Source: a virus
Taxonomy: Duplodnaviria; Heunggongvirae; Uroviricota; Caudoviricetes
DNA: 8,761 nucleotides
Virus record (IMG/VR): IMGVR_UViG_2645727563_000007
Direction: 5' to 3' (one strand)
In this document: positions 1-8,549 of the stretch, one piece after another
Layout of the letters: each line of letters opens with the position of its first letter
How positions within the stretch are numbered: position 1 is the stretch's first letter
Notes under the pieces: generated by a model
What the model saw: the letters and a program-made list of their open reading frames with translations, nothing else
Databases searched by the model: none
Told to the model about the DNA's origin: nothing
Translations under genes and position numbers: made by a program

Positions 1-81
1 ATGTCAAGCTGTTTTTTAATAGATAGCACAAAATGCTAAAGATGCCCCTATACCATCTCGTACAGGGGGTTTTGGAGGGGT

Positions 82-270
82 TTAGCGGGGGTCGGTATGG
101 TTATCTGTTCTGGTCCTGTCCTTGAGGTCAAACGACCATTCACGACCAAACAATCTGAACACGATAAACACTCTGACGATGAAATAGCGAAGTAGTAGGC
201 CTGCAATAAGTCCAATACCTCCACCAGCCCAAACATCAGGTGACCCCAGTTCAGGAGGGAGATTTACCAT
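82..270 (-). CDS. small predicted single-pass membrane protein (62 aa from internal ATG; the ORF extends to 306)
   Basis: ORF on - strand. The internal ATG (plus 268-270) is preceded by AGGA (revcomp of plus 277-280) at 6-nt spacing; the upstream ATG at 306 has no Shine-Dalgarno. Product MVNLPPELGSPDVWAGGGIGLIAGLLLRYFIVRVFIVFRLFGREW... has one hydrophobic helix then a charged tail. No family recognised. Confidence 0.3.
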   Translation of the reverse strand: MVNLPPELGSPDVWAGGGIGLIAGLLLRYFIVRVFIVFRLFGREWSFDLKDRTRTDNHTDPR

Positions 271-433
271 TAAATTTCCTGTGTGCAATGCAATACCATG
301 TGACATACATAGTTGATTCGGTTAGTTGGGCTTGTACCAACCCCTATCGAATAAACCTCATAGCCACGCCTCATATTTTACTCTCCCCATAGAACCATTA
401 TACCACAGATGTTAATAAAATGTTAAAAAATGC

Positions 434-462
434 TTGACATTAGTCTTTGAAAATGCTAGTAT
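434..462 (+). promoter_or_regulatory. sigma70-type promoter: -35 TTGACA (434-439), 17-bp spacer, extended -10 TGcTAGTAT (454-462)
   Basis: Perfect -35 hexamer, optimal 17-bp spacer, TG-extended -10 with conserved A2 and T6, AT-rich upstream tract; about 50 bp upstream of the first ATG of the 512-1823 operon. Confidence 0.45.
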
Positions 463-511
463 TGTCTATATGGTTAACAGAGAATTAACAATTATAAGGA
501 CTGGCTTATGA

Positions 512-1069: not shown

Positions 1070-1348
1070 ATGAAGAAACACACTTTGACCCGTATTTCAG
1101 AGGAAGCTTTTAACGAGCTTGCCAGAATTAAACGAGCTACTAACCTGCCTCATCAGACTGTTATGCAGCTTGCAATTGCTAAAGAGGTCACTGAGTCGGA
1201 TTTACTTAAATATCCAGTCTCTAAAGGTCGTAAGCACATCCGAATTACTCAGGACGCTTTAGATACTTTGAAGGCACTTAACGGCTTTAAGATTGATATT
1301 GCCCGTCTATTGAGTCTTAAGATTCACAAGTTAGCGATGGAGGTCTGA
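1070..1348 (+). CDS. ribbon-helix-helix (CopG/Arc-like) DNA-binding protein, apparently two tandem RHH units, 92 aa
   Basis: SD AGAGGA (1057-1062) 7 nt upstream. N-terminus MKKHTLTRISEEAFNELARIKRATNLPHQTVMQLAIAKEV has the beta-strand / helix / helix pattern of CopG-type RHH proteins; a second similar unit RKHIRITQDALDTLKALNGFKIDIARLLSLKI follows. Confidence 0.5.
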   Translation: MKKHTLTRISEEAFNELARIKRATNLPHQTVMQLAIAKEVTESDLLKYPVSKGRKHIRITQDALDTLKALNGFKIDIARLLSLKIHKLAMEV

Positions 1349-1350
1349 TT

Positions 1351-1623
1351 ATGAAGCAATGGCGAGATGATATTAAACGGTTCTTTGCAACTTACTTCAT
1401 GATTAATTACGAAACAGGAATGCTTGAATGGATTGATGGCGGAGAGGTTAAGACAAGAGATGATGCTTACGGTAATCCAATGATTCGTTATGGCACTCGT
1501 GATTATTATGTGAAGTATGTCATCTGGTTTTTGCATCATGAAGTTCAGGCAACTAAAAAGATTATCTTCAGGGATGGTAATAAAAGAAATTGCCACCCAA
1601 ACAATTTACTACAGGAGATTTAA
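1351..1623 (+). CDS. HNH_3-like (homing-endonuclease-type) small protein, 90 aa; canonical catalytic His apparently substituted
   Basis: SD GGAGG (1339-1343); start 2 bp after the previous stop. C-terminal ...YVKYVIWFLHHEVQATKKIIFRDGNKRNCHPNNL resembles the HNH_3 pattern (hR.vW ... vDHiDGN..NN...NL), but the DH preceding DGN reads FR. Confidence 0.4.
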   Translation: MKQWRDDIKRFFATYFMINYETGMLEWIDGGEVKTRDDAYGNPMIRYGTRDYYVKYVIWFLHHEVQATKKIIFRDGNKRNCHPNNLLQEI

Positions 1624-1823: not shown

Positions 1824-2002
1824 TCCGAGACTTTAAGAGAAATTAGAAAAAAAGCTTCTCAGGCGCTCTCAATCGCATTCTAACGCAAAAAACTATCTTA
1901 TTTTAGGGTGGGTAATACCACTGTACAGGCTACCCCTGAAAAAGACTGTTTAGCTCGTTACAGAGCGATTGAGGAGGTCTGGTAAAAAGGAGATTTTAAG
2001 AA

Positions 2003-2326
2003 ATGAACAATTTCCCGCTACAGATTTTCGTTGATAGCGACACCGCTATGATGGTGCAAAGCTTCATTGATGCAGGTATTAGCATTGACTTTGACAGGCT
2101 GTTAAAGCTAATGGCTGAGAACTCAGAAACAATCGAAGATTTTATTCAGGAAATTGAAACTGGTGAACCACGTTTTATGTTTCCTGTTACCGACTCAAGC
2201 ATGAAAAGGCTTGTTATCGAAGAAACTAACAAATACAGCGTTAGCCCTGAAAAATATCTCAAGGCGGCTATAGCAATTTTGTACAGCGATAATATTCTGG
2301 TGACGGATTCGAAGGTGGTGCATTAA
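2003..2326 (+). CDS. hypothetical acidic protein, 107 aa
   Basis: ORF with AAGGAG (1987-1992) upstream of ATG 2003. By hand count about 18 Asp+Glu against about 9 Lys+Arg. No family recognised. Confidence 0.55.
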   Translation: MNNFPLQIFVDSDTAMMVQSFIDAGISIDFDRLLKLMAENSETIEDFIQEIETGEPRFMFPVTDSSMKRLVIEETNKYSVSPEKYLKAAIAILYSDNILVTDSKVVH

Positions 2327-2403
2327 TGGGTTTAATAATTGCTTGGACGCTGTTAGGGTTATTTGTTGGTTGCTGGATGGGTAACACAGTAAATAGAAAT
2401 TGA
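2326..2403 (+). CDS. small hydrophobic peptide, 25 aa (MGLIIAWTLLGLFVGCWMGNTVNRN), candidate
   Basis: ATG overlaps the stop of the 107-aa gene (TAATG at 2324-2328), suggesting translational coupling. One predicted transmembrane helix. Below the ORF-track length cutoff, so supported only by coupling and hydrophobicity. Confidence 0.3.
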   Translation: MGLIIAWTLLGLFVGCWMGNTVNRN

Positions 2404-2427
2404 TGTTACCAATCTGTTAAAAAGCTG

Positions 2428-2456
2428 TTGACAAATAACCTTGAGCATGACATAAT
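2428..2456 (+). promoter_or_regulatory. sigma70-type promoter: -35 TTGACA (2428-2433), 17-bp spacer, -10 CATAAT (2451-2456)
   Basis: Perfect -35, 17-bp spacer, 5/6 -10, preceded by an A-rich UP-like tract (TTAAAAAG). No long ORF follows for about 430 bp. Confidence 0.5.
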
Positions 2457-2658
2457 TGTATATATGAGGATAGTCTTCTATCCGAAGTCTATAGGGAGAG
2501 CAATTCTCCTTGAATTAAAATATTAATCGTCTCTACATCGATGATAACTATATTCTGAGTTGGAAAGGTGCAATGCTTTTCGTCATGGCCTTTCAGTTTA
2601 GTCTGAGAGGCTATCTCAAAAAGTGCTTAATCATTCATTATTGAACCCTTACAGCTTT

Positions 2659-2688
2659 GCCCTAACTCATGATTAGGGCGTTTTCTTT
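2659..2688 (+). terminator. intrinsic terminator: stem GCCCTAA / TTAGGGC, 7-nt loop, then GTTTTCTTT
   Basis: Perfect 7-bp stem (2659-2665 / 2673-2679) followed by a U-rich tract (2681-2688). Confidence 0.5.
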
Positions 2689-2757
2689 AAGAGTTTTTAA
2701 ACAGAGCTTTTAAAGAAAGTTTTTCCTGAAACTTCGTTAACGTTAAAGCAAACCTTC

Positions 2758-2794
2758 AAAGCCCTTTACAGATTCAATGTTTAGGGCTTTTCTT
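2758..2794 (+). terminator. second terminator-like hairpin: AAAGCCCT / AGGGCTTT, 17-nt loop, then TTTCTT
   Basis: 8-bp stem (2758-2765 / 2783-2790) with U-rich 3' side. The long loop lowers confidence. The 3' half (TTAGGGCTTTTCTTAATAGAG) is a diverged copy of the 2673-2697 terminator region. Confidence 0.3.
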
Positions 2795-2890
2795 AATAGA
2801 GCATCTTTAATAAATCGTTAAGTCATCTTCTAAGTGTATTGGCGTTGAAGGTGCTCTATTAAGAAATAACCACACTTAGAGGAAATTATA

Positions 2891-3601
2891 ATGGCCAACG
2901 ATATTTACATTAACGGTAAAAAGATTGATAGCTTCGGTGACTGGTCACCAACGACTGAACATCCAGCTATCACTATTCAGCGTCAAGAGCATGACAAGCG
3001 TATTAAGCTTGAGCAAGAAATCCGAATGTCACCAAAGGTAATTTCCTTTGTGACTCCTGAACCTCAAGAGATGCCCGATATCTGCAAGGGTGAATCACTA
3101 CTTGAGCTTGAAAAGAAATATTACCCACTGCTGAAAGCACAGCGTATTAAACTTGATGACGCTTACAGCAAAGTTACCTTGATGCAATCAGCTATTGAGC
3201 CGTCAGAATTTGAGATTCAGGATGAATTGTCACAGAAACCATTTGTCTATTACCAATACGAAGACAATGATGGTTTTGGTATTTATCCAGAAAGCATCCC
3301 AGCCGTGATTAGTAGTCTTCCTGATGGATATCGAATTGTGAAGATGGTTAAAGCTTCAAGGGGTGCTGGTCAGTTTGTTTACATGACCGATAAAAGCGAT
3401 GAAGAAGTCTGTGAAATTGCCAGACAGAACATCTTGGCATCACGTAACAAGCAGCTTGATAGTGCTAAGTTGTGTCTTTCAAGAGAGCTTCAGGCTATGA
3501 AAGAGCTTGTGAAAGAATATGAAGATGCTAAGAAGGTTGCTATGCAGGCTGATATTGAGCAGCTTACGAAGATTTCTCAGAAGTATAGCAAGGTACTTTA
3601 A
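2891..3601 (+). CDS. hypothetical protein, 236 aa, predicted coiled-coil C-terminal region
   Basis: ORF with SD AGAGGA (2878-2883) 7 nt upstream of ATG 2891. No family recognised. Confidence 0.6.
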   Translation: MANDIYINGKKIDSFGDWSPTTEHPAITIQRQEHDKRIKLEQEIRMSPKVISFVTPEPQEMPDICKGESLLELEKKYYPLLKAQRIKLDDAYSKVTLMQSAIEPSEFEIQDELSQKPFVYYQYEDNDGFGIYPESIPAVISSLPDGYRIVKMVKASRGAGQFVYMTDKSDEEVCEIARQNILASRNKQLDSAKLCLSRELQAMKELVKEYEDAKKVAMQADIEQLTKISQKYSKVL

Positions 3602-3625: not shown

Positions 3626-3829
3626 ATGATTGATTTAACAGAACGCTATGAACTTATTAAAGCAATTAGCGAGAGATTGAAAGAACAACCCAACAAACCA
3701 AAACGAATCAAATCATCCACCTCTAGGCAAAATAGCAGAATCAGAAGAATCGCTAAATGGTGTCTTGATAAATTACCAAGTGATTGTCAGATTGTCGGTG
3801 AAGATGGTAATTATTATCTGGTTAGGTAA
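3626..3829 (+). CDS. hypothetical small basic protein, 67 aa
   Basis: Strong SD AAGGAGG (3613-3619) 6 nt upstream of ATG 3626. Lys/Arg-rich centre (KPKRIKSSTSRQNSRIRRIAKW) suggests nucleic-acid binding. No family recognised. Confidence 0.5.
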   Translation: MIDLTERYELIKAISERLKEQPNKPKRIKSSTSRQNSRIRRIAKWCLDKLPSDCQIVGEDGNYYLVR

Positions 3830-3855
3830 CAAGAATTGGTTGGGTAAAAATCAAC

Positions 3856-3896
3856 GGGAGAGATTATCGAGTGACATCGGTAGCTCTCCCTTTTTT
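3856..3896 (+). terminator. intrinsic terminator: GGGAGAG...CTCTCCC stem with inner TATCGA/TCGGTA pairing, then TTTTTTGT
   Basis: 7-bp GC-rich outer stem (3856-3862 / 3884-3890), an inner 6-bp helix (3865-3870 / 3877-3882, one G.U), and a T6 tract (3891-3896) directly after the 67-aa gene. Confidence 0.55.
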
Positions 3897-3926
3897 GTAT
3901 ATGAACACTTAAGAGGTGAAACATGA

Positions 3927-6059
3927 ATGAGCAAATTCACAGTTGATAGTTTTATCGTTGAGCTAGGCTTCAGCGAGAACGTTATTAAGGGCTTGCAAAG
4001 AGTTGAAAAGGCAGCTTTGCAGTCAGCACAAAGAATTGAAAAGAACCTAAATAAAGGTTTCAGGATTAATACAAAGCAGCTTGATAGTAATTTAACGGCT
4101 TCTTTAAAGTCAATGGAAGGGAAGATTAATAAGACCTTTGACCGTCTGGAAGCTAGAGCACGAAGCACAAAAGTTTTCCAGTTTACCACCAGATTTAATG
4201 ACACTGTTAATCCTCCAAAACAACCGAGACAGCCACGAATTAGCGGCAACAGAGCAATCACAGCAGCTTATTCAGCTAATATGACCAAGCTGAAAGGTCT
4301 TAACCCAATTGTCGAGAAATACATCAAATCTCAGTTTTACGGGCTATCTGCTAAAGCTGGGTCAATGGATAATTCAAAATTCAATGAGAAGTTGGCTCAA
4401 TTAAATGCTTCGGTCAGAGAAGCAATTGCTAAAGCCAGAGGCCATACATCCACCAGCATTAACGGTGACAGAGCAGCTAGCAGTCTTGATAATCTGTCTT
4501 TAGCGGCGGTTAAAACAGCAGGTGCATTTATCAGCTTTCAGGCTGTACTATCCGCTTATCAGCGAGTAATGGAAGTTGGCCTTCAACGTGCATCATCGGA
4601 AAGAAGTATTGATTTCGTATTCGGTGACCAAAGTACACAGGTCAAAAAGTTCATTCAAGATTTAACTCAGATTACTGGGATGGACACAACCGAAACACAA
4701 GCACAGTTTGCTTCATTTGGTGCATCTGCAAAGAACACGATGGGTCTTGAAGGGTCAGAAGAGTTATTTAAAAACCTTACAGGTTATGCTCGTTTAATGG
4801 GTCGTTCAGATGAGCAGATTCAAAGAGCATTAACCGCAGTGTCGCAGATGGCTTCTAAGGGTCAGGTGATGTCTGAGGAGCTGAAGGGGCAACTATCTGA
4901 AGCTTTACCGGGTGCTACTCAGGCATTTGCAAAGGCTTTAGGTCTGACTGAAAAACAGCTTTTCGATAAGATGAAAAATGGTGATGTTAAAGCCTCTGAT
5001 GCACTCCCTAAATTTGCTAAAGAACTTGGTTCACAGATTAATTCAAGAGGTGGCTGGAAAGCTATTCAGGACTCTACGCAGACAATGCTAGGGAACTTGA
5101 AGAATACTTGGAACAACTCACTAACGGATATTTTCAAAGGTTCTGAAGATGGTTTGCAGGACTTCACAAGAAGCTTGACCAATCTTTTAAACGCTCTTGG
5201 TGGAACTGGTAAAACATTAGGTGAAAGTTTTGGTAGCTTGATGACTGATATGTCACATGGTGTCGATTCATTGACTGATATTTCTTACAAGGTGAGAGCT
5301 TTCTTTGATGAGGTGACATTAGCTTACCGTTCACTAAATGACACTCAGAAAAAAATTGTTGACGGTTTATCTGATGGGTTAATTGATGGTTTGAAGATGC
5401 TTGCTGTAGCTGTTACTGCTCAAAAGGCTGCAAATGTAGCTGGAGGCTTGTTAAACCTTGCAAATGCTGTTACTTCATTCGGTGATGCTGTTAATAAAGC
5501 TAAAGCTGGCAAGGCTGGTTCTTCAGGTGGTGCGCTAAGTAAAGTCGGTAGAGTTGTCCTTTATGCTGAGTTGGTGAACTTTGCTCTTGATAATTTAAAC
5601 CCTGAAGCTGCTAAGAATCCGAACTTACATCAATCAGGTATTGGCACAGAAACAAACTTCAACCCTGAATACAAAGGCGATTCATCTAAACCAAACCAAA
5701 TTAATGAGGGATGGGCTAAGATTGGTAGTTCTATCGCTGACTGGTTTAATGGTGCAGCTAATAAAATTGCTAACTTCCAAGAGCCAATGAGTAACCTTGT
5801 TAATAACACACAATCAACTCCACCAGCTATCACAGGTGACATGGTTAATAGCAATGCTCAACTTGCAATGACTATTAGTGAACTATCACGCAAGGTAGAC
5901 GCTTTAACAGTAGAAGCTAAGAAGCCCTTGTCAGTTAATATCACTGGTGAAGCAACTGTTAGACCGGATGAACCAGCTTTCTTTAATTTCAGTCAATCGG
6001 CTAATGACCAGTTCACGCAGGATATGCTCTTAAGTTCAAGCTATCCAGAGGAAGAATGA
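3927..6059 (+). CDS. phage tail tape-measure-domain protein, 710 aa
   Basis: SD AAGAGGTG (3911-3918). Central segment ...QMASKGQVMSEELKGQLSEALPGATQAFAKALGLTEKQLFDKMKNGDVKASDALPKFAKELG... matches the conserved tape-measure motif. Predicted helical N-terminal part and Gly/Ala/Ser/Asn-rich C-terminal part are typical of these proteins. Confidence 0.8.
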   Translation: MSKFTVDSFIVELGFSENVIKGLQRVEKAALQSAQRIEKNLNKGFRINTKQLDSNLTASLKSMEGKINKTFDRLEARARSTKVFQFTTRFNDTVNPPKQPRQPRISGNRAITAAYSANMTKLKGLNPIVEKYIKSQFYGLSAKAGSMDNSKFNEKLAQLNASVREAIAKARGHTSTSINGDRAASSLDNLSLAAVKTAGAFISFQAVLSAYQRVMEVGLQRASSERSIDFVFGDQSTQVKKFIQDLTQITGMDTTETQAQFASFGASAKNTMGLEGSEELFKNLTGYARLMGRSDEQIQRALTAVSQMASKGQVMSEELKGQLSEALPGATQAFAKALGLTEKQLFDKMKNGDVKASDALPKFAKELGSQINSRGGWKAIQDSTQTMLGNLKNTWNNSLTDIFKGSEDGLQDFTRSLTNLLNALGGTGKTLGESFGSLMTDMSHGVDSLTDISYKVRAFFDEVTLAYRSLNDTQKKIVDGLSDGLIDGLKMLAVAVTAQKAANVAGGLLNLANAVTSFGDAVNKAKAGKAGSSGGALSKVGRVVLYAELVNFALDNLNPEAAKNPNLHQSGIGTETNFNPEYKGDSSKPNQINEGWAKIGSSIADWFNGAANKIANFQEPMSNLVNNTQSTPPAITGDMVNSNAQLAMTISELSRKVDALTVEAKKPLSVNITGEATVRPDEPAFFNFSQSANDQFTQDMLLSSSYPEEE

Positions 6060-6158: not shown

Positions 6159-6208
6159 ATTTCAAAGGCTTGGTTAAAAATGATTAAAATACACTAAGCC
6201 TTTGAAAT
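6159..6208. repeat. perfect 13-bp inverted repeat ATTTCAAAGGCTT / AAGCCTTTGAAAT (extendable to 16 bp), ending 2 nt before the next gene's SD
   Basis: Arms at 6159-6171 and 6196-6208 are exact reverse complements; three further pairs (one G.U) extend the helix; SD AAGGAG at 6211-6216. Confidence 0.55.
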
Positions 6209-6222
6209 CAAAGGAGAATTTA

Positions 6223-6996
6223 ATGATTTACTCTAATCAGATTCGTTACAGTGGCAAAGATGGCATCTATTTCCACTTAAGAGATAATGTAGATGCCTTC
6301 TTAACCTTATCAGCAACTGAAAATATGGAATTTGACAGCCCTATGCAGGTAACTACACAGAACATGCAATCAGGGCAAACCGTTACAGATAATGTGCAAA
6401 GAGCACCCAGAACAATCACTATTAGTGGTGTCGTTGTAGTTGGCTATGAAGGAAGCTTATTATTAACTCGTCAGGGTCAATTAGTAGAAAACTTCATTGA
6501 CACTCTCGAAAGCTGGCGTGACCAGAAGCAAATTATTTCGGTTATCTGTAAGGACGGAATTAAAATTGATGATTCCATTATTACGAGTTTTAAAGCCTCT
6601 AAAGATGTTGGAATTTCAAATGGTCTAAGAATCCAGCTAACTTTTCAGGAAATTAACTTCAAAGCCATTGTAGGGCAAACTGATGTTTCAGCAGCTACTG
6701 GCAAAACTGCTACCACGAATGACGGTGGTGCTACCAGTAAGAAGAATGCGGGTAACGTGACTACTGAACGCAATAACGCACCTATGCTGATGTGTCAGGA
6801 ACTGTACAGTTACTCAGCATCTGAGCTATCTGATGAAGCGCTAAGGGTCCGTAGCAATTGCTCTAAAAATGTCACGGTGAAAGATGGTGTAAGCACCTTC
6901 ACAGCCTCAGCTAATGAGCAGGCTTCAAAAGTGCTTAAGTCGGGTAATGCTTTACGGAAGTTTTCTGTGAATCCGAATAAGAAGGGCACTTATTGA
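6223..6996 (+). CDS. hypothetical protein, 257 aa; by position possibly a distal tail (Dit-like) protein
   Basis: Start set at ATG 6223 with SD AAGGAG (6211-6216) rather than the track's TTG 6202. Immediately follows the tape-measure gene, the usual position of Dit in siphovirus tail modules; sequence looks beta-rich. Function is inferred from position only. Confidence 0.55.
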
Positions 6997-7028: not shown

Positions 7029-8549
7029 TTACAGTTGATAAGCGTCAATATCCAGTAGCTCTTTATCAGCAATTTCAAAGATTGGTGACCCATCATTTAG
7101 CGGTAACGGGTTTGTAGGTATGGTGATTTCAGTGTCGTTCTGTAGCGTTACAGTTACCGAATCCTTACCCAATGTAAGCCCTTTTAGATGCTTGGACAAA
7201 ATCAACTGACACTCGACACGACCCACTTTAGTTGTCAGGTCAATATCTTTAAGCTGGGGTAGTTCCTTATCAGTGAGTGAAGCCTTACGCCTCATGTTAT
7301 CAATCGTGGTCTGTAGCTCTGTGCGCTTCTGGTTCAGTTCCTTAAGCTGAATTTTTAGTTCATCAATATCATCCATCTCAAGAAGTAGGGCGGTAGCTTT
7401 CTTGATTCTGGTTGTGACAATTTCAACCTCATGCTGTAGAGATGCAATCTCCCCCTCTGCTTCTCCATCATTCCCCACGTCAATCATTCCTAGAAAATTT
7501 TCAAGCATCCACTTATCAAACGGTTTACGCTTCAACGGAGGAACATCACAGCGACCATCAAGATGGTTATTGCACCGATAAACGCCCTGATACTTATTCT
7601 TAGTCCCTGTAGGGTGAACACTAGCCCCGCACTGACACCTAAACAGACCTTTGAAGATGTTAATCGTTAATGGATTATCACTTGCAGGTGTACGGCCTAT
7701 ACGGTTCTTACCAAGAATCTCTTGAGCTTTATTGAACGTTGAAGCATCTATAGCGGCTTCGTAGTAGTTCGGTATAGCGGGGCGGTCATTACGTTGTGAT
7801 GCTGGTAACGTGCCTATCGTTGTCTCTGACCTTAAGATGGTGCGTACAGAGTGAACACTAAACCCGTTAGCATCTTTACGGCGACTAAACGACTTTATAC
7901 CGTTGCTTTGAAGGTGACGGGCGATGTTATGCAGACTTTCACCACTTAGCAGCAGCTTGAAAATCAGTCTTACAGTCTCAGCGTGTTCATTGCACTTGAA
8001 AGTATCGGGGTCAATCCATCCGGGAACATTTCTTGTAAGACGCTGTTCACCAGCAAGGGCAAGCTTTGCACGTTGTTCCCATTTCTGACTAACACGGAAA
8101 GACTTCTGTTTACTCTCCTGATGCGCTATGTAGCTTTTAACCCGCTGAATGATTGAGATTCCTAAATCATCGGATAGAGCATCCCTTGTGTAGATTAGCC
8201 CATCCTGTAGAGTGTGAATCTCGATACCATGAGCAATAATGCGATTCATCAAGGCTTCTGTTTCAAGATGTTCAAGGCGGCCTATGCGGTCGATAGCTTC
8301 GACTAACAGAACTGTACCTTCTGAAAACTCCCCACTTTCAATACGGGAAAGCATATCCCCAAATTGCCCTGACAAGTGCTTACCTTTGTAACCGGATAGA
8401 CCCTCATCATTGAAAGATGCTACTACTTGAGCATCGCTATTCTTCTTCAACCATTGTTTGAACAGGTCGTTTTGTCGTCTGGTTGAATCTGCACCTTCAG
8501 CGCCTTGTATGGCTGAACTGTACCGAAGGTATGTAATTACGTGTCTCAT
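7029..8549 (-). CDS. large serine recombinase (serine integrase), 506 aa
   Basis: N-terminal resolvase-type catalytic domain (YLRYSSAIQ with the catalytic Ser; DEGLSGYKG; LLVEAIDRIGR), followed by a recombinase domain, a Cys-rich zinc-ribbon (FRCQCGASVHPTG...YRCNNHLDGRCD) and a C-terminal coiled-coil. SD GGGAG (revcomp of 8559-8563) 9 nt upstream of ATG. Confidence 0.9.
   Translation of the reverse strand: MRHVITYLRYSSAIQGAEGADSTRRQNDLFKQWLKKNSDAQVVASFNDEGLSGYKGKHLSGQFGDMLSRIESGEFSEGTVLLVEAIDRIGRLEHLETEALMNRIIAHGIEIHTLQDGLIYTRDALSDDLGISIIQRVKSYIAHQESKQKSFRVSQKWEQRAKLALAGEQRLTRNVPGWIDPDTFKCNEHAETVRLIFKLLLSGESLHNIARHLQSNGIKSFSRRKDANGFSVHSVRTILRSETTIGTLPASQRNDRPAIPNYYEAAIDASTFNKAQEILGKNRIGRTPASDNPLTINIFKGLFRCQCGASVHPTGTKNKYQGVYRCNNHLDGRCDVPPLKRKPFDKWMLENFLGMIDVGNDGEAEGEIASLQHEVEIVTTRIKKATALLLEMDDIDELKIQLKELNQKRTELQTTIDNMRRKASLTDKELPQLKDIDLTTKVGRVECQLILSKHLKGLTLGKDSVTVTLQNDTEITIPTNPLPLNDGSPIFEIADKELLDIDAYQL

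What the first reader, a model, noticed from the sequence alone, without database searches (positions are those of the whole stretch)
2003..2403. Acidic 107-aa protein coupled to a 25-aa membrane peptide
The 107-aa product is strongly acidic by hand count (about 18 D+E against about 9 K+R), a property shared by phage DNA-mimic and anti-restriction proteins. Its stop overlaps the start of a 25-codon ORF encoding one hydrophobic helix. Small membrane peptides coupled to phage accessory genes can act as superinfection-exclusion factors or toxins. Both functions are speculative.
Basis: inference. Interest (0 to 1): 0.4.

Follow-up and report, generated by a model that had tools for sequence, protein, structure and literature searches.

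The report
Acidic tandem-RHH protein plus membrane micro-peptide
Both small genes are real and conserved: the acidic protein is predicted to have a doubled ribbon-helix-helix DNA-regulator fold rather than a DNA-mimic fold, the 25-residue peptide is a selected membrane helix, and both are core parts of a 12-kb E. coli island built around tail genes and terminal-repeat sequences of virulent Felix O1-like phages.

Summary
ORF 2003-2326 encodes 107 aa (18 D+E, 9 K+R, pI 4.36). Its TAA overlaps the ATG of a 25-codon hydrophobic ORF (2326-2403).

Both are genuine genes. pN/pS is about 0.3 for each in its own frame and 0.8-1.5 in the other frames. A 21-25-aa hydrophobic ORF with an overlapping stop/start is present in all 24 related islands examined.

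The N-terminal unit is strongly acidic (about -10), which is atypical for DNA binding.

The pair closes the early operon of an ~11.7-kb serine-recombinase island found in 470 of 5426 E. coli genomes. The island carries a Felixounavirus-derived tape-measure gene and Dit-like gene. An almost invariant promoter lies immediately downstream. It is preceded by 11-bp-phased TGTTA repeats, which also form a dense array in the Felixounavirus terminal repeat.

Most likely role: a regulatory factor of the island plus a small membrane effector. Function remains untested.

The parts
410..462 (+). Promoter P1 of the early operon. TGTTA-N6-TGTTA lies at 410-425, then TTGACA-17-TAGTAT with an extended -10 TG at 434-462. 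The architecture and the repeat-to-(-35) distance match those of P2.
1070..1348 (+). ORF92, a basic protein (about +7 by my count) with two beta-alpha-alpha sequence patterns. It has weak DndE hits and short local similarity to the N-terminal unit of the 107-aa protein. Homologues are present in all island types, so it is a likely DNA-binding partner or paralogue.
1855..1985 (+). About 130-nt stable hairpin element directly upstream of the 107-aa gene. Its base pairs with the region of the gene's Shine-Dalgarno sequence. It is present only in some island types.
   Evidence: z -4.1
1987..1992 (+). Shine-Dalgarno AAGGAG of the 107-aa gene, 10 nt before the ATG.
2003..2326 (+). CDS for a 107-aa acidic single-chain tandem ribbon-helix-helix protein. 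Unit 1 is strand 6-10 with helices 12-24 and 30-39. An acidic linker helix spans 41-50. Unit 2 is strand 58-62 with helices 65-78 and 82-95.
2312..2318 (+). Shine-Dalgarno AAGGTGG for the micro-peptide, inside the last codons of the 107-aa gene. In islands whose C-terminus reads SVR(I/V)H, the equivalent sequence is GAGGA or GAGGG.
2326..2403 (+). CDS for a 25-aa single-helix membrane micro-peptide (MGLIIAWTLLGLFVGCWMGNTVNRN) with a GxxxG motif. It is translationally coupled by a TAATG overlap.
2404..2430 (+). Three 11-bp-phased direct repeats: TGTTA (2404), TGTTA (2415) and TGTTG (2426). They start one base after the peptide stop codon and run into the -35 element. They are nearly invariant in 18 loci and are a putative operator.
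2428..2456 (+). Promoter P2: TTGACA-17-CATAAT with an extended -10 TG, matching 11 of 12 consensus positions. It drives the operon of the 236-aa, 67-aa, tape-measure and Dit-like genes.
2463..2890 (+). Structured leader of the P2 transcript. It contains a covarying hairpin and a terminator-like site at 2658-2680. It is context for the finding, not part of the two ORFs.

Best explanation
The two ORFs are the last two cistrons of the early (P1) operon of an ~11.7-kb integrative island of E. coli. The island carries a large serine recombinase and has no capsid or terminase genes. It is tied to virulent Felix O1-like phages (Felixounavirus). It carries a tape-measure gene and a Dit-like baseplate gene derived from them, a stretch 91% identical to the phage terminal repeat, and promoters preceded by the same 11-bp-phased TGTTA repeats that fill that terminal repeat.

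Shown or well supported:
- Both ORFs are under purifying selection and are universal in the island family.
- The 107-aa protein is predicted to fold as a single-chain tandem ribbon-helix-helix (a pseudo-dimer, like TraY, DndE, VirC2 and AvtR).
- Its N-terminal unit is highly acidic and its C-terminal unit is neutral to basic.
- The peptide is a single hydrophobic helix with a conserved small-xxx-small motif and is translated by coupling to whichever cistron precedes it.

Inferred:
- The acidic tandem-RHH is a regulatory component of the island's switch. It acts on the invariant TGTTA-repeat promoter P2 that begins one base after the peptide stop, and on P1, which has the same architecture.
- It could do this directly, through its more conventional C-terminal unit (R57 on the strand, K68/R69, S79/S81 at the start of helix B).
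- Or it could antagonise a basic DNA-binding partner, such as the island's own basic tandem-RHH ORF92 or a helper-phage protein that binds TGTTA repeats.
- The micro-peptide is a small inner-membrane effector that binds or perturbs a membrane protein when the early operon is expressed.
For: Real genes:
- pN/pS is 0.33 for the 107-aa gene, against 0.83 and 1.31 off-frame.
- pN/pS is 0.31 for the peptide, against 1.19 and 1.50 off-frame.
- 24 of 24 loci keep the overlap and an intact peptide ORF. These include homologues at 44% identity, where the overlap is ATGA, and a lineage with an inserted 74-aa gene.
- Shine-Dalgarno sequences are preserved in both C-terminal sequence variants.

Fold:
- The model of the window protein has pLDDT 80 and pTM 0.70, with elements E6-10 H12-24 H30-39 H41-50 E58-62 H65-78 H82-95.
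- The model of the 44%-identical homologue has the same topology, pLDDT 82 and pTM 0.77, and all five models score 75-82.
- The Foldseek top hit is also TraY (E 0.24).

Charge: the asymmetry is conserved, -9.4 to -11.5 for residues 1-55 and 0 to +3 for residues 56-107.

Context:
- The island lies between yciI and tonB, or inside yecE.
- It is present in 470 of 5426 genomes.
- The 55 nt after the peptide stop are almost invariant across 18 loci, while the flanking coding DNA differs by 15-25%.
- Within the islands, TGTTA-N6-TGTTA occurs only at promoters. P1 and P2 have identical spacing to the -35 element.
- The same phased repeat occurs 12 times in the 651-bp terminal repeat of phage NBEco005.
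- The one island lineage with a 44%-diverged protein has TGATA/TGATG at the equivalent P2 positions and no TGTTA pair at all.
Against: - No sequence-profile match to any RHH, TraY or DndE family.
- One of the five models of the window protein failed, with pLDDT 36.
- The internal repeat is not detectable by hhalign (E 0.086).
- Net charge -9 is unfavourable for canonical RHH-DNA contacts. So are aspartates at the start of helix B of unit 1 (D29, D31), and exposed Phe9 and Met59 on the ribbon face inferred from the strand alternation.
- ORF92 is basic and is the more obvious candidate for DNA binding.
- The TGTTA sites could instead be bound by a phage-encoded protein.
- The co-variation of protein and operator rests on a single lineage, and the two features are physically adjacent, so linkage alone could explain it.
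- One genome (L013) has an internal stop in the 107-aa gene.
- Nothing here shows expression, DNA binding, membrane insertion or any phenotype.
Confidence: 0.45

Rival explanations
1. DNA mimic or anti-restriction protein. The acidic surface imitates DNA phosphate and blocks restriction enzymes or another DNA-binding defence or phage protein.
For: The acidity is conserved, with pI 4.2-4.6, and is concentrated in residues 1-55 (about -10). Aspartates occupy positions where an RHH normally touches phosphate, based on the sequence and the topology. An acidic RHH unit could act as a decoy for a protein that recognises TGTTA DNA.
Confidence: 0.1
2. Toxin-antitoxin-like or abortive-infection pair. 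An acidic RHH 'antitoxin' is followed by a translationally coupled membrane-depolarising peptide toxin, which is released when the island senses phage infection.
For: The gene order and overlapping stop/start resemble type II TA operons. Many RHH antitoxins (MazE, ParD, TacA, VapB) appear among the structural hits. The peptide resembles type I toxins in size and hydrophobicity (sequence; my own knowledge of Ibs, ShoB and TisB).
Against: In L073/L074 a 74-aa gene separates the two, and the peptide is coupled to that gene instead. In L013 the 107-aa gene carries a stop codon while the peptide is intact. No antisense promoter or known RNA was found. A soluble acidic protein neutralising a 21-25-aa transmembrane helix has no precedent that I know of.
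Confidence: 0.1
3. Recombination directionality factor for the island's large serine recombinase. A small acidic protein binds the integrase and switches it to excision.
For: The island must excise and encodes a large serine recombinase at 7029-8549. The directionality factors of serine integrases are small, unrelated to one another, and act by protein-protein contact (my own knowledge). The 107-aa gene is universal in the island family.
Against: The subtypes of the 107-aa protein do not track the integration site. Both main variants occur at the tonB and yecE sites. The gene is about 4.7 kb from the recombinase gene. The RHH fold is not known for such factors. Other universal small genes (67 aa, 236 aa) are equally eligible.
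Confidence: 0.1
4. Anti-helper or assembly factor. The protein binds a Felixounavirus protein, for example a terminal-repeat or packaging factor or a tail component, to redirect or block phage development, and has no role in the island's own transcription.
For: The island shares tail genes and terminal-repeat-like DNA with Felixounavirus. TraY and VirC2, the closest folds, are accessory factors at DNA-processing sites (for the hits; their roles are my own knowledge). The TGTTA repeats lie in the phage terminal repeat.
Against: There is no direct evidence. The strongest local signal is the invariant promoter next to the gene, which points to transcription.
Confidence: 0.15

Closest known systems
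TraY (F-plasmid relaxosome accessory protein), a single-chain tandem ribbon-helix-helix
   Different: Sequence identity is only 8%, and there is no Pfam TraY or RHH match. TraY is basic (my own knowledge), whereas this protein has net charge -9 with an acidic first unit. There is no relaxase or oriT context.
DndE, AvtR and VirC2, the other single-chain tandem-RHH DNA-binding proteins
   Different: There is no dnd gene context and no sequence similarity. The acidic charge contrasts with the positively charged DNA-binding faces of these proteins (my own knowledge).
Arc, Mnt, CopG and RHH antitoxins (MazE, ParD, TacA)
   Different: Those proteins are homodimers of one unit. Here two diverged units are fused, and their relatedness is no longer detectable by sequence.
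Small membrane proteins of E. coli and phages: type I toxins Ibs, ShoB, TisB and DinQ; regulators such as KdpF, MgtS and AcrZ
   Same: The peptide is 21-25 aa, forms one hydrophobic helix, has a small-xxx-small motif and has polar or basic residues at the C-terminus.
   Different: It has no own promoter, long 5' UTR or antisense RNA. It is translated by coupling at the end of an operon. It has no sequence similarity to any family: the only PHROG hit has E 0.064 and there is no tblastn hit in phages.
Phage satellites (P4-like, PICI, cfPICI, PLE, PICMI) as the kind of element that hosts the genes
   Same: The island is small and integrative, has its own recombinase, lacks capsid and terminase genes, shares helper-derived genes and cis-acting-like sequences with the phage, and is present in about 9% of E. 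coli genomes.
   Different: It carries a tape-measure gene and a Dit-like tail gene instead of capsid-remodelling or packaging genes. The presumed helper is a virulent myovirus with terminal repeats. Induction and packaging are untested. I found no description of such an element in the searchable literature.

Membership tests
Ribbon-helix-helix superfamily, single-chain tandem type (TraY, DndE, VirC2, AvtR) | Two consecutive beta-strand, helix, turn, helix units in one chain | tested here: met
   AlphaFold models of the window protein and of a 44%-identical homologue both give E-H-H, linker helix, E-H-H.
Ribbon-helix-helix superfamily, single-chain tandem type (TraY, DndE, VirC2, AvtR) | Structural superposition on solved members | tested here: met
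Ribbon-helix-helix superfamily, single-chain tandem type (TraY, DndE, VirC2, AvtR) | Sequence-profile match to an RHH, TraY or DndE family model | tested here: not met
   Pfam scans of the whole protein, both halves and four homologues at E up to 10 gave no RHH family. NCBIfam gave none. A profile search of PDB sequences gave none.
Ribbon-helix-helix superfamily, single-chain tandem type (TraY, DndE, VirC2, AvtR) | Sequence-specific DNA binding through the two-stranded ribbon | not testable with these tools
   Unit 2 has the usual features (R57, K68/R69, S79/S81). Unit 1 has D11, D13, D29 and D31 and a net charge of about -10. A candidate operator (TGTTA repeats) lies next to the gene.
DNA-mimic or anti-restriction proteins (Ocr, ArdA, Arn, HI1450-type) | Strongly acidic surface | tested here: met
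   pI 4.36 and charge -9.4, conserved in all variants.
DNA-mimic or anti-restriction proteins (Ocr, ArdA, Arn, HI1450-type) | Fold or sequence related to a known mimic | tested here: not met
DNA-mimic or anti-restriction proteins (Ocr, ArdA, Arn, HI1450-type) | Inhibition of a DNA-binding enzyme | not testable with these tools
   This needs an experiment.
Type II toxin-antitoxin module with an RHH antitoxin | The antitoxin gene is directly followed by, and specifically paired with, a protein toxin gene | tested here: not met
   The downstream gene is a 21-25-aa hydrophobic peptide. In L073/L074 a 74-aa gene is inserted between the two. In L013 the upstream gene is a pseudogene while the peptide is intact.
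Type I toxin small hydrophobic peptides (Ibs, ShoB, TisB, Hok-like) | Small hydrophobic membrane peptide | tested here: met
   GRAVY 0.95 and a single helix-length hydrophobic stretch.
Type I toxin small hydrophobic peptides (Ibs, ShoB, TisB, Hok-like) | Own transcript controlled by an overlapping or adjacent antisense RNA | tested here: not met
   No promoter-like site was found on the minus strand within or downstream of the peptide ORF; the nearest minus-strand site, 2167-2139, lies inside the 107-aa gene. There is no Rfam match. The peptide is translationally coupled inside an operon.
Bacterial lipoprotein precursor | A lipobox [LVI][ASTVI][GAS]C conserved across homologues, after a basic n-region | tested here: not met
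   FVGC is present only in the 25-aa type. The 21-aa and 22-aa types lack a suitably placed Cys, and there is no basic n-region.
Phage satellite (host element) | Integrative element with a recombinase, lacking a full set of virion genes, and sharing genes or cis-acting sites with a helper phage | tested here: met
   Searches show the gene content. Searches show that the tape-measure and Dit-like genes derive from Felixounavirus. Searches show the 91% match to the phage terminal repeat.
Phage satellite (host element) | Induction, replication and packaging by the helper phage | not testable with these tools
   This needs infection experiments with a Felixounavirus.

The most novel reading that the evidence does not exclude
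The acidic tandem-RHH and the micro-peptide are core parts of an undescribed family of satellites, or anti-phage islands, that parasitise virulent Felix O1-like phages. The acidic first RHH unit acts as a decoy, a partial DNA mimic built on a DNA-binding fold. It titrates a TGTTA-repeat-binding protein, either the island's basic RHH ORF92 or a helper factor that binds the terminal repeat. This switches on the P2 tail-gene operon or sabotages helper packaging. The peptide acts at the membrane to block superinfection or to time lysis.
Probability: 0.12. Interest if true: 0.8.

Novelty: new variant of a known kind. Interest (0 to 1): 0.5.

Why it matters
If the fold assignment and context hold, this is an orphan, enterobacteria-restricted family: only 16 clusters at 50% identity among 1.8 billion representative proteins. 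It uses a classical DNA-binding scaffold in an unusually acidic form, and it is always followed by a selected 21-25-aa membrane peptide that genome annotation misses.

Both genes are fixed components of an island present in about 9% of complete E. coli genomes. That island shares tail genes, terminal-repeat sequence and phased TGTTA repeats with Felixounavirus phages, which are used for Salmonella and E. coli typing and biocontrol. Understanding the switch could reveal how a chromosomal element senses or exploits a virulent phage. It would also add a verified micro-protein to the E. coli accessory proteome.

Tried and rejected
- Sequence-family assignment of the 107-aa protein found nothing credible. 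Pfam gave only a sub-threshold Casc1_C hit; PHROGs, NCBIfam, PADLOC and a profile search of PDB sequences gave none.
- tblastn of the 107-aa protein, the 25-aa peptide, ORF92 and the 236-aa protein against 50,697 phage records gave no meaningful match.
- hhalign of the N half against the C half was not significant (E 0.086).
- The afdb50 structure library was unavailable.
The 236-aa protein was therefore not modelled.
- A scan of viral contigs for the promoter pattern TTGACA-N23-TGTATATATG gave 48 single, scattered hits, probably chance, and no Felixounavirus cluster.
- Rfam found nothing in the window, and there are no tRNAs.
- I considered a lipoprotein reading of the peptide (FVGC) and rejected it, because the Cys is not conserved in the 21-aa and 22-aa types.
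- I considered the 23-codon ORF 2573-2644 downstream of P2 and rejected it, because it is truncated to 5 codons in other islands.
- The phage 'transcriptional regulatory protein' next to a repeat region is an HTH protein unrelated to the island proteins.
- Literature searches for a Felix O1 satellite, for the peptide or protein sequences, and for yecE or serine-recombinase islands found no description.
Full report
**1. The observation**

The ORF list gives 2003..2326 (+, 107 aa, ATG start) and 2326..2403 (+, 25 aa, ATG start). The junction reads CAT TAA TGG, so stop and start share one base. The peptide MGLIIAWTLLGLFVGCWMGNTVNRN has GRAVY 0.95. Shine-Dalgarno sequences precede both starts: AAGGAG at 1987-1992 and AAGGTGG at 2312-2318.

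**2. Where the window comes from**

- The exact 107-aa protein is recorded from an 8761-bp E. coli contig and is named 'hypothetical protein XA44_23845'.
- The window aligns to E. coli chromosomes. In strain RL465 it is the right-hand three quarters of an ~11.7-kb insertion between yciI and tonB.
- Related copies lie inside yecE (a DUF72 gene) and at a third site near msyB.
- The 1-kb region around the finding is present in 470 of 5426 complete E. coli genomes, always on the chromosome, with up to three copies per genome.
- Genes common to all versions examined are:
  - a ~92-97-aa basic protein (ORF92 in the window);
  - the 107-aa protein and the micro-peptide;
  - a 236-242-aa protein that PGAP labels 'transposase' without any support I could find;
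  - a 67-72-aa protein;
  - a tape-measure protein (Pfam TMP_3) and a Dit-like baseplate protein;
  - a convergent large serine recombinase.
- No capsid, portal or terminase gene is present.

**3. Link to Felix O1-like phages**

- Megablast of the window against phage records hits only Felixounavirus and close relatives. The hits fall in the tape-measure and Dit-like genes, with up to 98.6% nucleotide identity over about 500 bp.
- In phage garuso the two homologues are adjacent and in the same order.
- The Dit-like proteins are 78% identical overall, nearly identical over roughly the first 190 residues and diverged at the C-terminal end. The tape-measure proteins share only the first ~45 and last ~10 residues well, with 29% identity overall.
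- The non-coding left arm of the island has a 68-bp stretch that is 91% identical to positions 242-307 of phage NBEco005. It also has weaker collinear matches further along.
- In NBEco005 those positions lie in a 651-bp sequence repeated at both ends of the record, that is the direct terminal repeat. A Felix O1-like phage with 608-bp terminal direct repeats has been reported (PMC4837284).
- The island is therefore a plausible satellite of Felixounavirus, or a defence element directed against it. I found no description of it in the searchable literature.

**4. Are the two ORFs genes?**

I collected 24 loci: the window, 17 loci from complete genomes, and 6 from the divergent homologues P0122 and P0128.

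- *The 107-aa gene.* Fourteen distinct full-length alleles give pS 0.38, pN 0.13 and a ratio of 0.33, against 0.83 and 1.31 in the other frames. The two halves of the gene behave alike.
- *The peptide, conservation.* Every locus has an intact hydrophobic ORF whose ATG overlaps the stop of the preceding cistron: TAATG in 20 loci and ATGA in the four P0128-type loci.
- *The peptide, sequence types.* There are three:
  - 25 aa, M(G/T/D)LI(I/V)(A/L)WT(L/A/M)LGL(F/L)VGC...N(K/R)N;
  - 21 aa, MELVIICFVLIGMIAGASIKV;
  - 22 aa, MTLIILWVLLGIVLSFAISMER.

  All carry a small-xxx-small motif (GxxxG or GxxxS) at the same depth of the helix and a charged or polar C-terminus.
- *The peptide, selection.* Ten distinct 25-codon alleles give pN/pS 0.31, against 1.19 and 1.50 off-frame. 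The 21-codon type is identical at the DNA level in 7 loci whose neighbouring 107-aa genes differ. This suggests spread of the peptide segment by recombination.
- *Ribosome-binding site.* A purine-rich Shine-Dalgarno sequence 7-9 nt upstream is kept in both C-terminal sequence variants of the upstream gene.
- *Positional coupling.* In L073/L074 a 74-aa soluble protein gene is inserted after the 108-aa homologue, and the peptide ORF then overlaps that gene by TAATG. The peptide therefore behaves as the obligatory last cistron of the operon, not as a specific partner of the acidic protein.
- *A pseudogene.* In L013 the 107-aa gene has an internal stop while the peptide ORF is intact.
- *Annotation.* None of the annotated records examined lists the peptide as a gene.

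**5. What the 107-aa protein is**

- *An orphan family.* It has no credible hit in Pfam, PHROGs, NCBIfam, PADLOC or PDB sequences and no homologue in phage records. A full HMMER scan of 1.84 billion representative proteins found only 16 clusters at 50% identity. Most are fragments. The most distant full-length members are 66% and 44% identical. All named homologues come from Escherichia, Shigella or Salmonella.
- *Predicted structure.* AlphaFold2 on a 17-sequence alignment gave pLDDT 80 and pTM 0.70, with strand 6-10, helices 12-24, 30-39 and 41-50, strand 58-62, and helices 65-78 and 82-95. This is two beta-alpha-alpha units joined by an acidic helix, which is the ribbon-helix-helix (RHH) motif twice in one chain.
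- *Sequence pattern.* The C-terminal unit PRFMFPVTDSSMKRLVIEETNKYSVSPEKYL follows the Arc pattern (my reading). hhalign of the two halves is not significant (E 0.086), but it aligns the turn-plus-helix-B segments AGISIDFDRLLKL and TNKYSVSPEKYLK.
- *Verdict on the fold.* No DNA-mimic protein appears among the structural hits. I take the tandem-RHH fold as well supported but not proven.

**6. The unusual feature**

The charge is split between the two units. Residues 1-55 carry -9.4 to -11.5 and residues 56-107 carry 0 to +3, in all alleles. Unit 2 has what an RHH needs for DNA contact: R57 on the strand, K68/R69, and S79/S81 at the start of helix B. Unit 1 has D11, D13, D23, D29 and D31, including the positions that normally approach phosphate. 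The outward-facing ribbon positions inferred from the strand alternation include F9 and M59 (this is inference).

The same operon encodes ORF92 (1070-1348). It is a basic protein whose sequence also shows two beta-alpha-alpha patterns. It gives weak DndE hits (Pfam E 0.096; NCBIfam TIGR03184 E 0.005) and a short local match to unit 1 of the 107-aa protein (NGFKIDIARLLSL against AGISIDFDRLLKL). Homologues of ORF92 are present in all island types. The island thus appears to encode one basic and one acidic tandem RHH.

**7. The neighbouring DNA**

- One base after the peptide stop begins TGTTA-N6-TGTTA-N6-TGTTG, phased at 11 bp. It runs into a near-consensus promoter, TTGACA-17-CATAAT with an extended -10 (2428-2456).
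- These ~55 nt are almost invariant in 18 loci, although adjacent coding DNA differs by 15-25%.
- The early promoter P1 (434-462) has the same TGTTA-N6-TGTTA at the same distance from its -35 element. It also has an inverted copy just downstream.
- In the island sequences examined, the strict motif occurs only at these promoter positions, plus the spacer of a third promoter in L002. It is absent from the ~37 kb of flanking chromosome in locus L001.
- The same phased motif occurs 12 times within the terminal repeat of phage NBEco005, and only three more times in the remaining ~87 kb of that genome.
- In the P0128-type islands, whose protein is 44% identical, the equivalent P2 positions read TGATA and TGATG, and there is no TGTTA pair anywhere. 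ORF92 homologues do not track this difference. The L002 and L069 versions share their predicted strand residues (HTVTR / KAIRIT), yet their P2 repeats differ.
- This is one lineage only, and the gene and the site are adjacent. It is therefore a hint that the 107-aa protein and the repeats belong together, not a demonstration.

**8. Mechanism**

The best-supported reading is that the acidic tandem RHH is a regulatory component of the island's switch at P2 and P1. It could bind DNA through its conventional C-terminal unit. Alternatively it could antagonise a basic TGTTA-binding protein, either ORF92 or a helper-phage factor that recognises the terminal-repeat array. The micro-peptide would be a small inner-membrane effector made whenever the early operon is translated.

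- Shown: gene reality, conservation, fold prediction, genomic context and promoter architecture.
- Inferred: everything about binding and effect.
- Rivals: a pure DNA mimic, a toxin-antitoxin or abortive-infection pair, a recombination directionality factor, and an anti-helper protein. They are listed with their evidence in the Rival explanations section.

**9. Comparison with known systems and novelty**

Functionally and structurally the protein is closest to the single-chain tandem RHH proteins TraY, DndE, VirC2 and AvtR. It fails the sequence-profile test for those families and departs from them in charge, so I do not file it as a member of any curated family. The peptide resembles type I toxins and small membrane regulators in size only. 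It lacks their genetic organisation. The host element resembles phage satellites but carries tail genes rather than capsid or packaging genes.

I rate the finding as a new variant of a known kind. It has moderate interest in itself and more through the island it belongs to.

**10. Other things seen**

- The P2 leader (2463-2890) is strongly structured (z -4.8), with a terminator-like site and a covarying hairpin.
- A ~130-nt hairpin element (1855-1985, z -4.1) lies just upstream of the 107-aa gene. A second copy lies elsewhere in locus L001, at a place where the window has none.
- A small membrane protein is encoded on the minus strand, divergent from P1.
- An HNH endonuclease gene varies in presence and position between islands.

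Noticed in passing
Whole window; locus L001 about 16900-28600: The window is part of an ~11.7-kb integrative island. It sits at yciI|tonB, and other copies lie inside yecE and near msyB. It is present in 470 of 5426 complete E. coli genomes. It has a large serine recombinase and a tape-measure plus Dit-like gene pair derived from Felixounavirus, and it has no capsid or terminase genes. It is a candidate satellite of, or defence island against, virulent Felix O1-like phages. I found no description of it in the literature searches.
   Followed up: partly
Window 410-425, 475-490 (minus strand), 2404-2430; locus L075 54-830 and L076 (record positions 87675-88272): TGTTA-N6-TGTTA repeats phased at 11 bp sit just upstream of the -35 element of both island promoters. 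The same phased repeat forms a dense array of 12 overlapping pairs in the 651-bp direct terminal repeat of Felixounavirus NBEco005. The protein that binds them is unknown.
   Followed up: partly
Locus L001 19757-19824 against NBEco005 242-307: The non-coding left arm of the island has a 68-bp stretch that is 91% identical to the phage terminal repeat. It also has weaker collinear matches across the repeat boundary (phage 595-989). This may be a borrowed packaging or replication signal.
   Followed up: partly
Window 1070-1348 (+): ORF92 is a basic protein with two beta-alpha-alpha sequence patterns and weak DndE hits. It is conserved in all island types. It is probably a second tandem-RHH protein and the more obvious DNA binder of the operon.
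   Followed up: partly
Window 2463-2890 (+): The long leader between promoter P2 and the 236-aa gene is strongly structured (z -4.8). It has a terminator-like hairpin at 2658-2680 and a hairpin (GGGAGAGCAATTCTCC) that covaries between islands. It may be an attenuator or antitermination element, or a small RNA.
   Followed up: partly
Window 1855-1985 (+); locus L001 about 20270-20360: A ~130-nt element forms a long hairpin (z -4.1) with the arms GCTCTCAATCGC and GCGATTGAGGAG. It occurs upstream of the 107-aa gene. In L001 a second copy lies upstream of P1, at a place where the window has none. It may be a small insertion element.
   Followed up: partly
Window 82-306 or 48-236 (-): A small membrane protein (GGGIGLIAGLLL...) is encoded divergently from P1. 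It is annotated as a 58-aa hypothetical protein in other islands. It could be a gene expressed in the integrated state.
   Followed up: no
Window 2891-3601 (+): The 236-aa protein is labelled 'transposase' in RefSeq. It has no Pfam, NCBIfam, PHROG or PADLOC hit and no phage homologue. By eye, its C-terminal third looks like a coiled coil. The label appears unfounded.
   Followed up: partly
Window 3927-6059 and 6202-6996 (+): The tail genes are mosaics. The tape-measure protein shares only its first ~45 and last ~10 residues well with the phage protein (29% overall). The Dit-like protein is nearly identical to the phage protein over about 190 N-terminal residues and diverged at the C-terminus. 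Interfaces with helper parts may be kept while the remainder is replaced.
   Followed up: partly
Window 1351-1623 (+): The HNH endonuclease gene differs in position, or is absent, between otherwise similar islands. This is reminiscent of a homing endonuclease insertion.
   Followed up: no
Window 3626-3829 and 3765-3926 (+): A 67-aa ORF is overlapped by a 53-codon ORF in another frame just upstream of the tape-measure gene. This may be a frameshifted tail-assembly-chaperone pair. The 67-aa protein shows no similarity to the phage chaperone.
   Followed up: no
Locus L013 1603-1926: In one genome the 107-aa gene carries an internal stop codon, while the downstream peptide ORF and promoter P2 are intact.
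   Followed up: no
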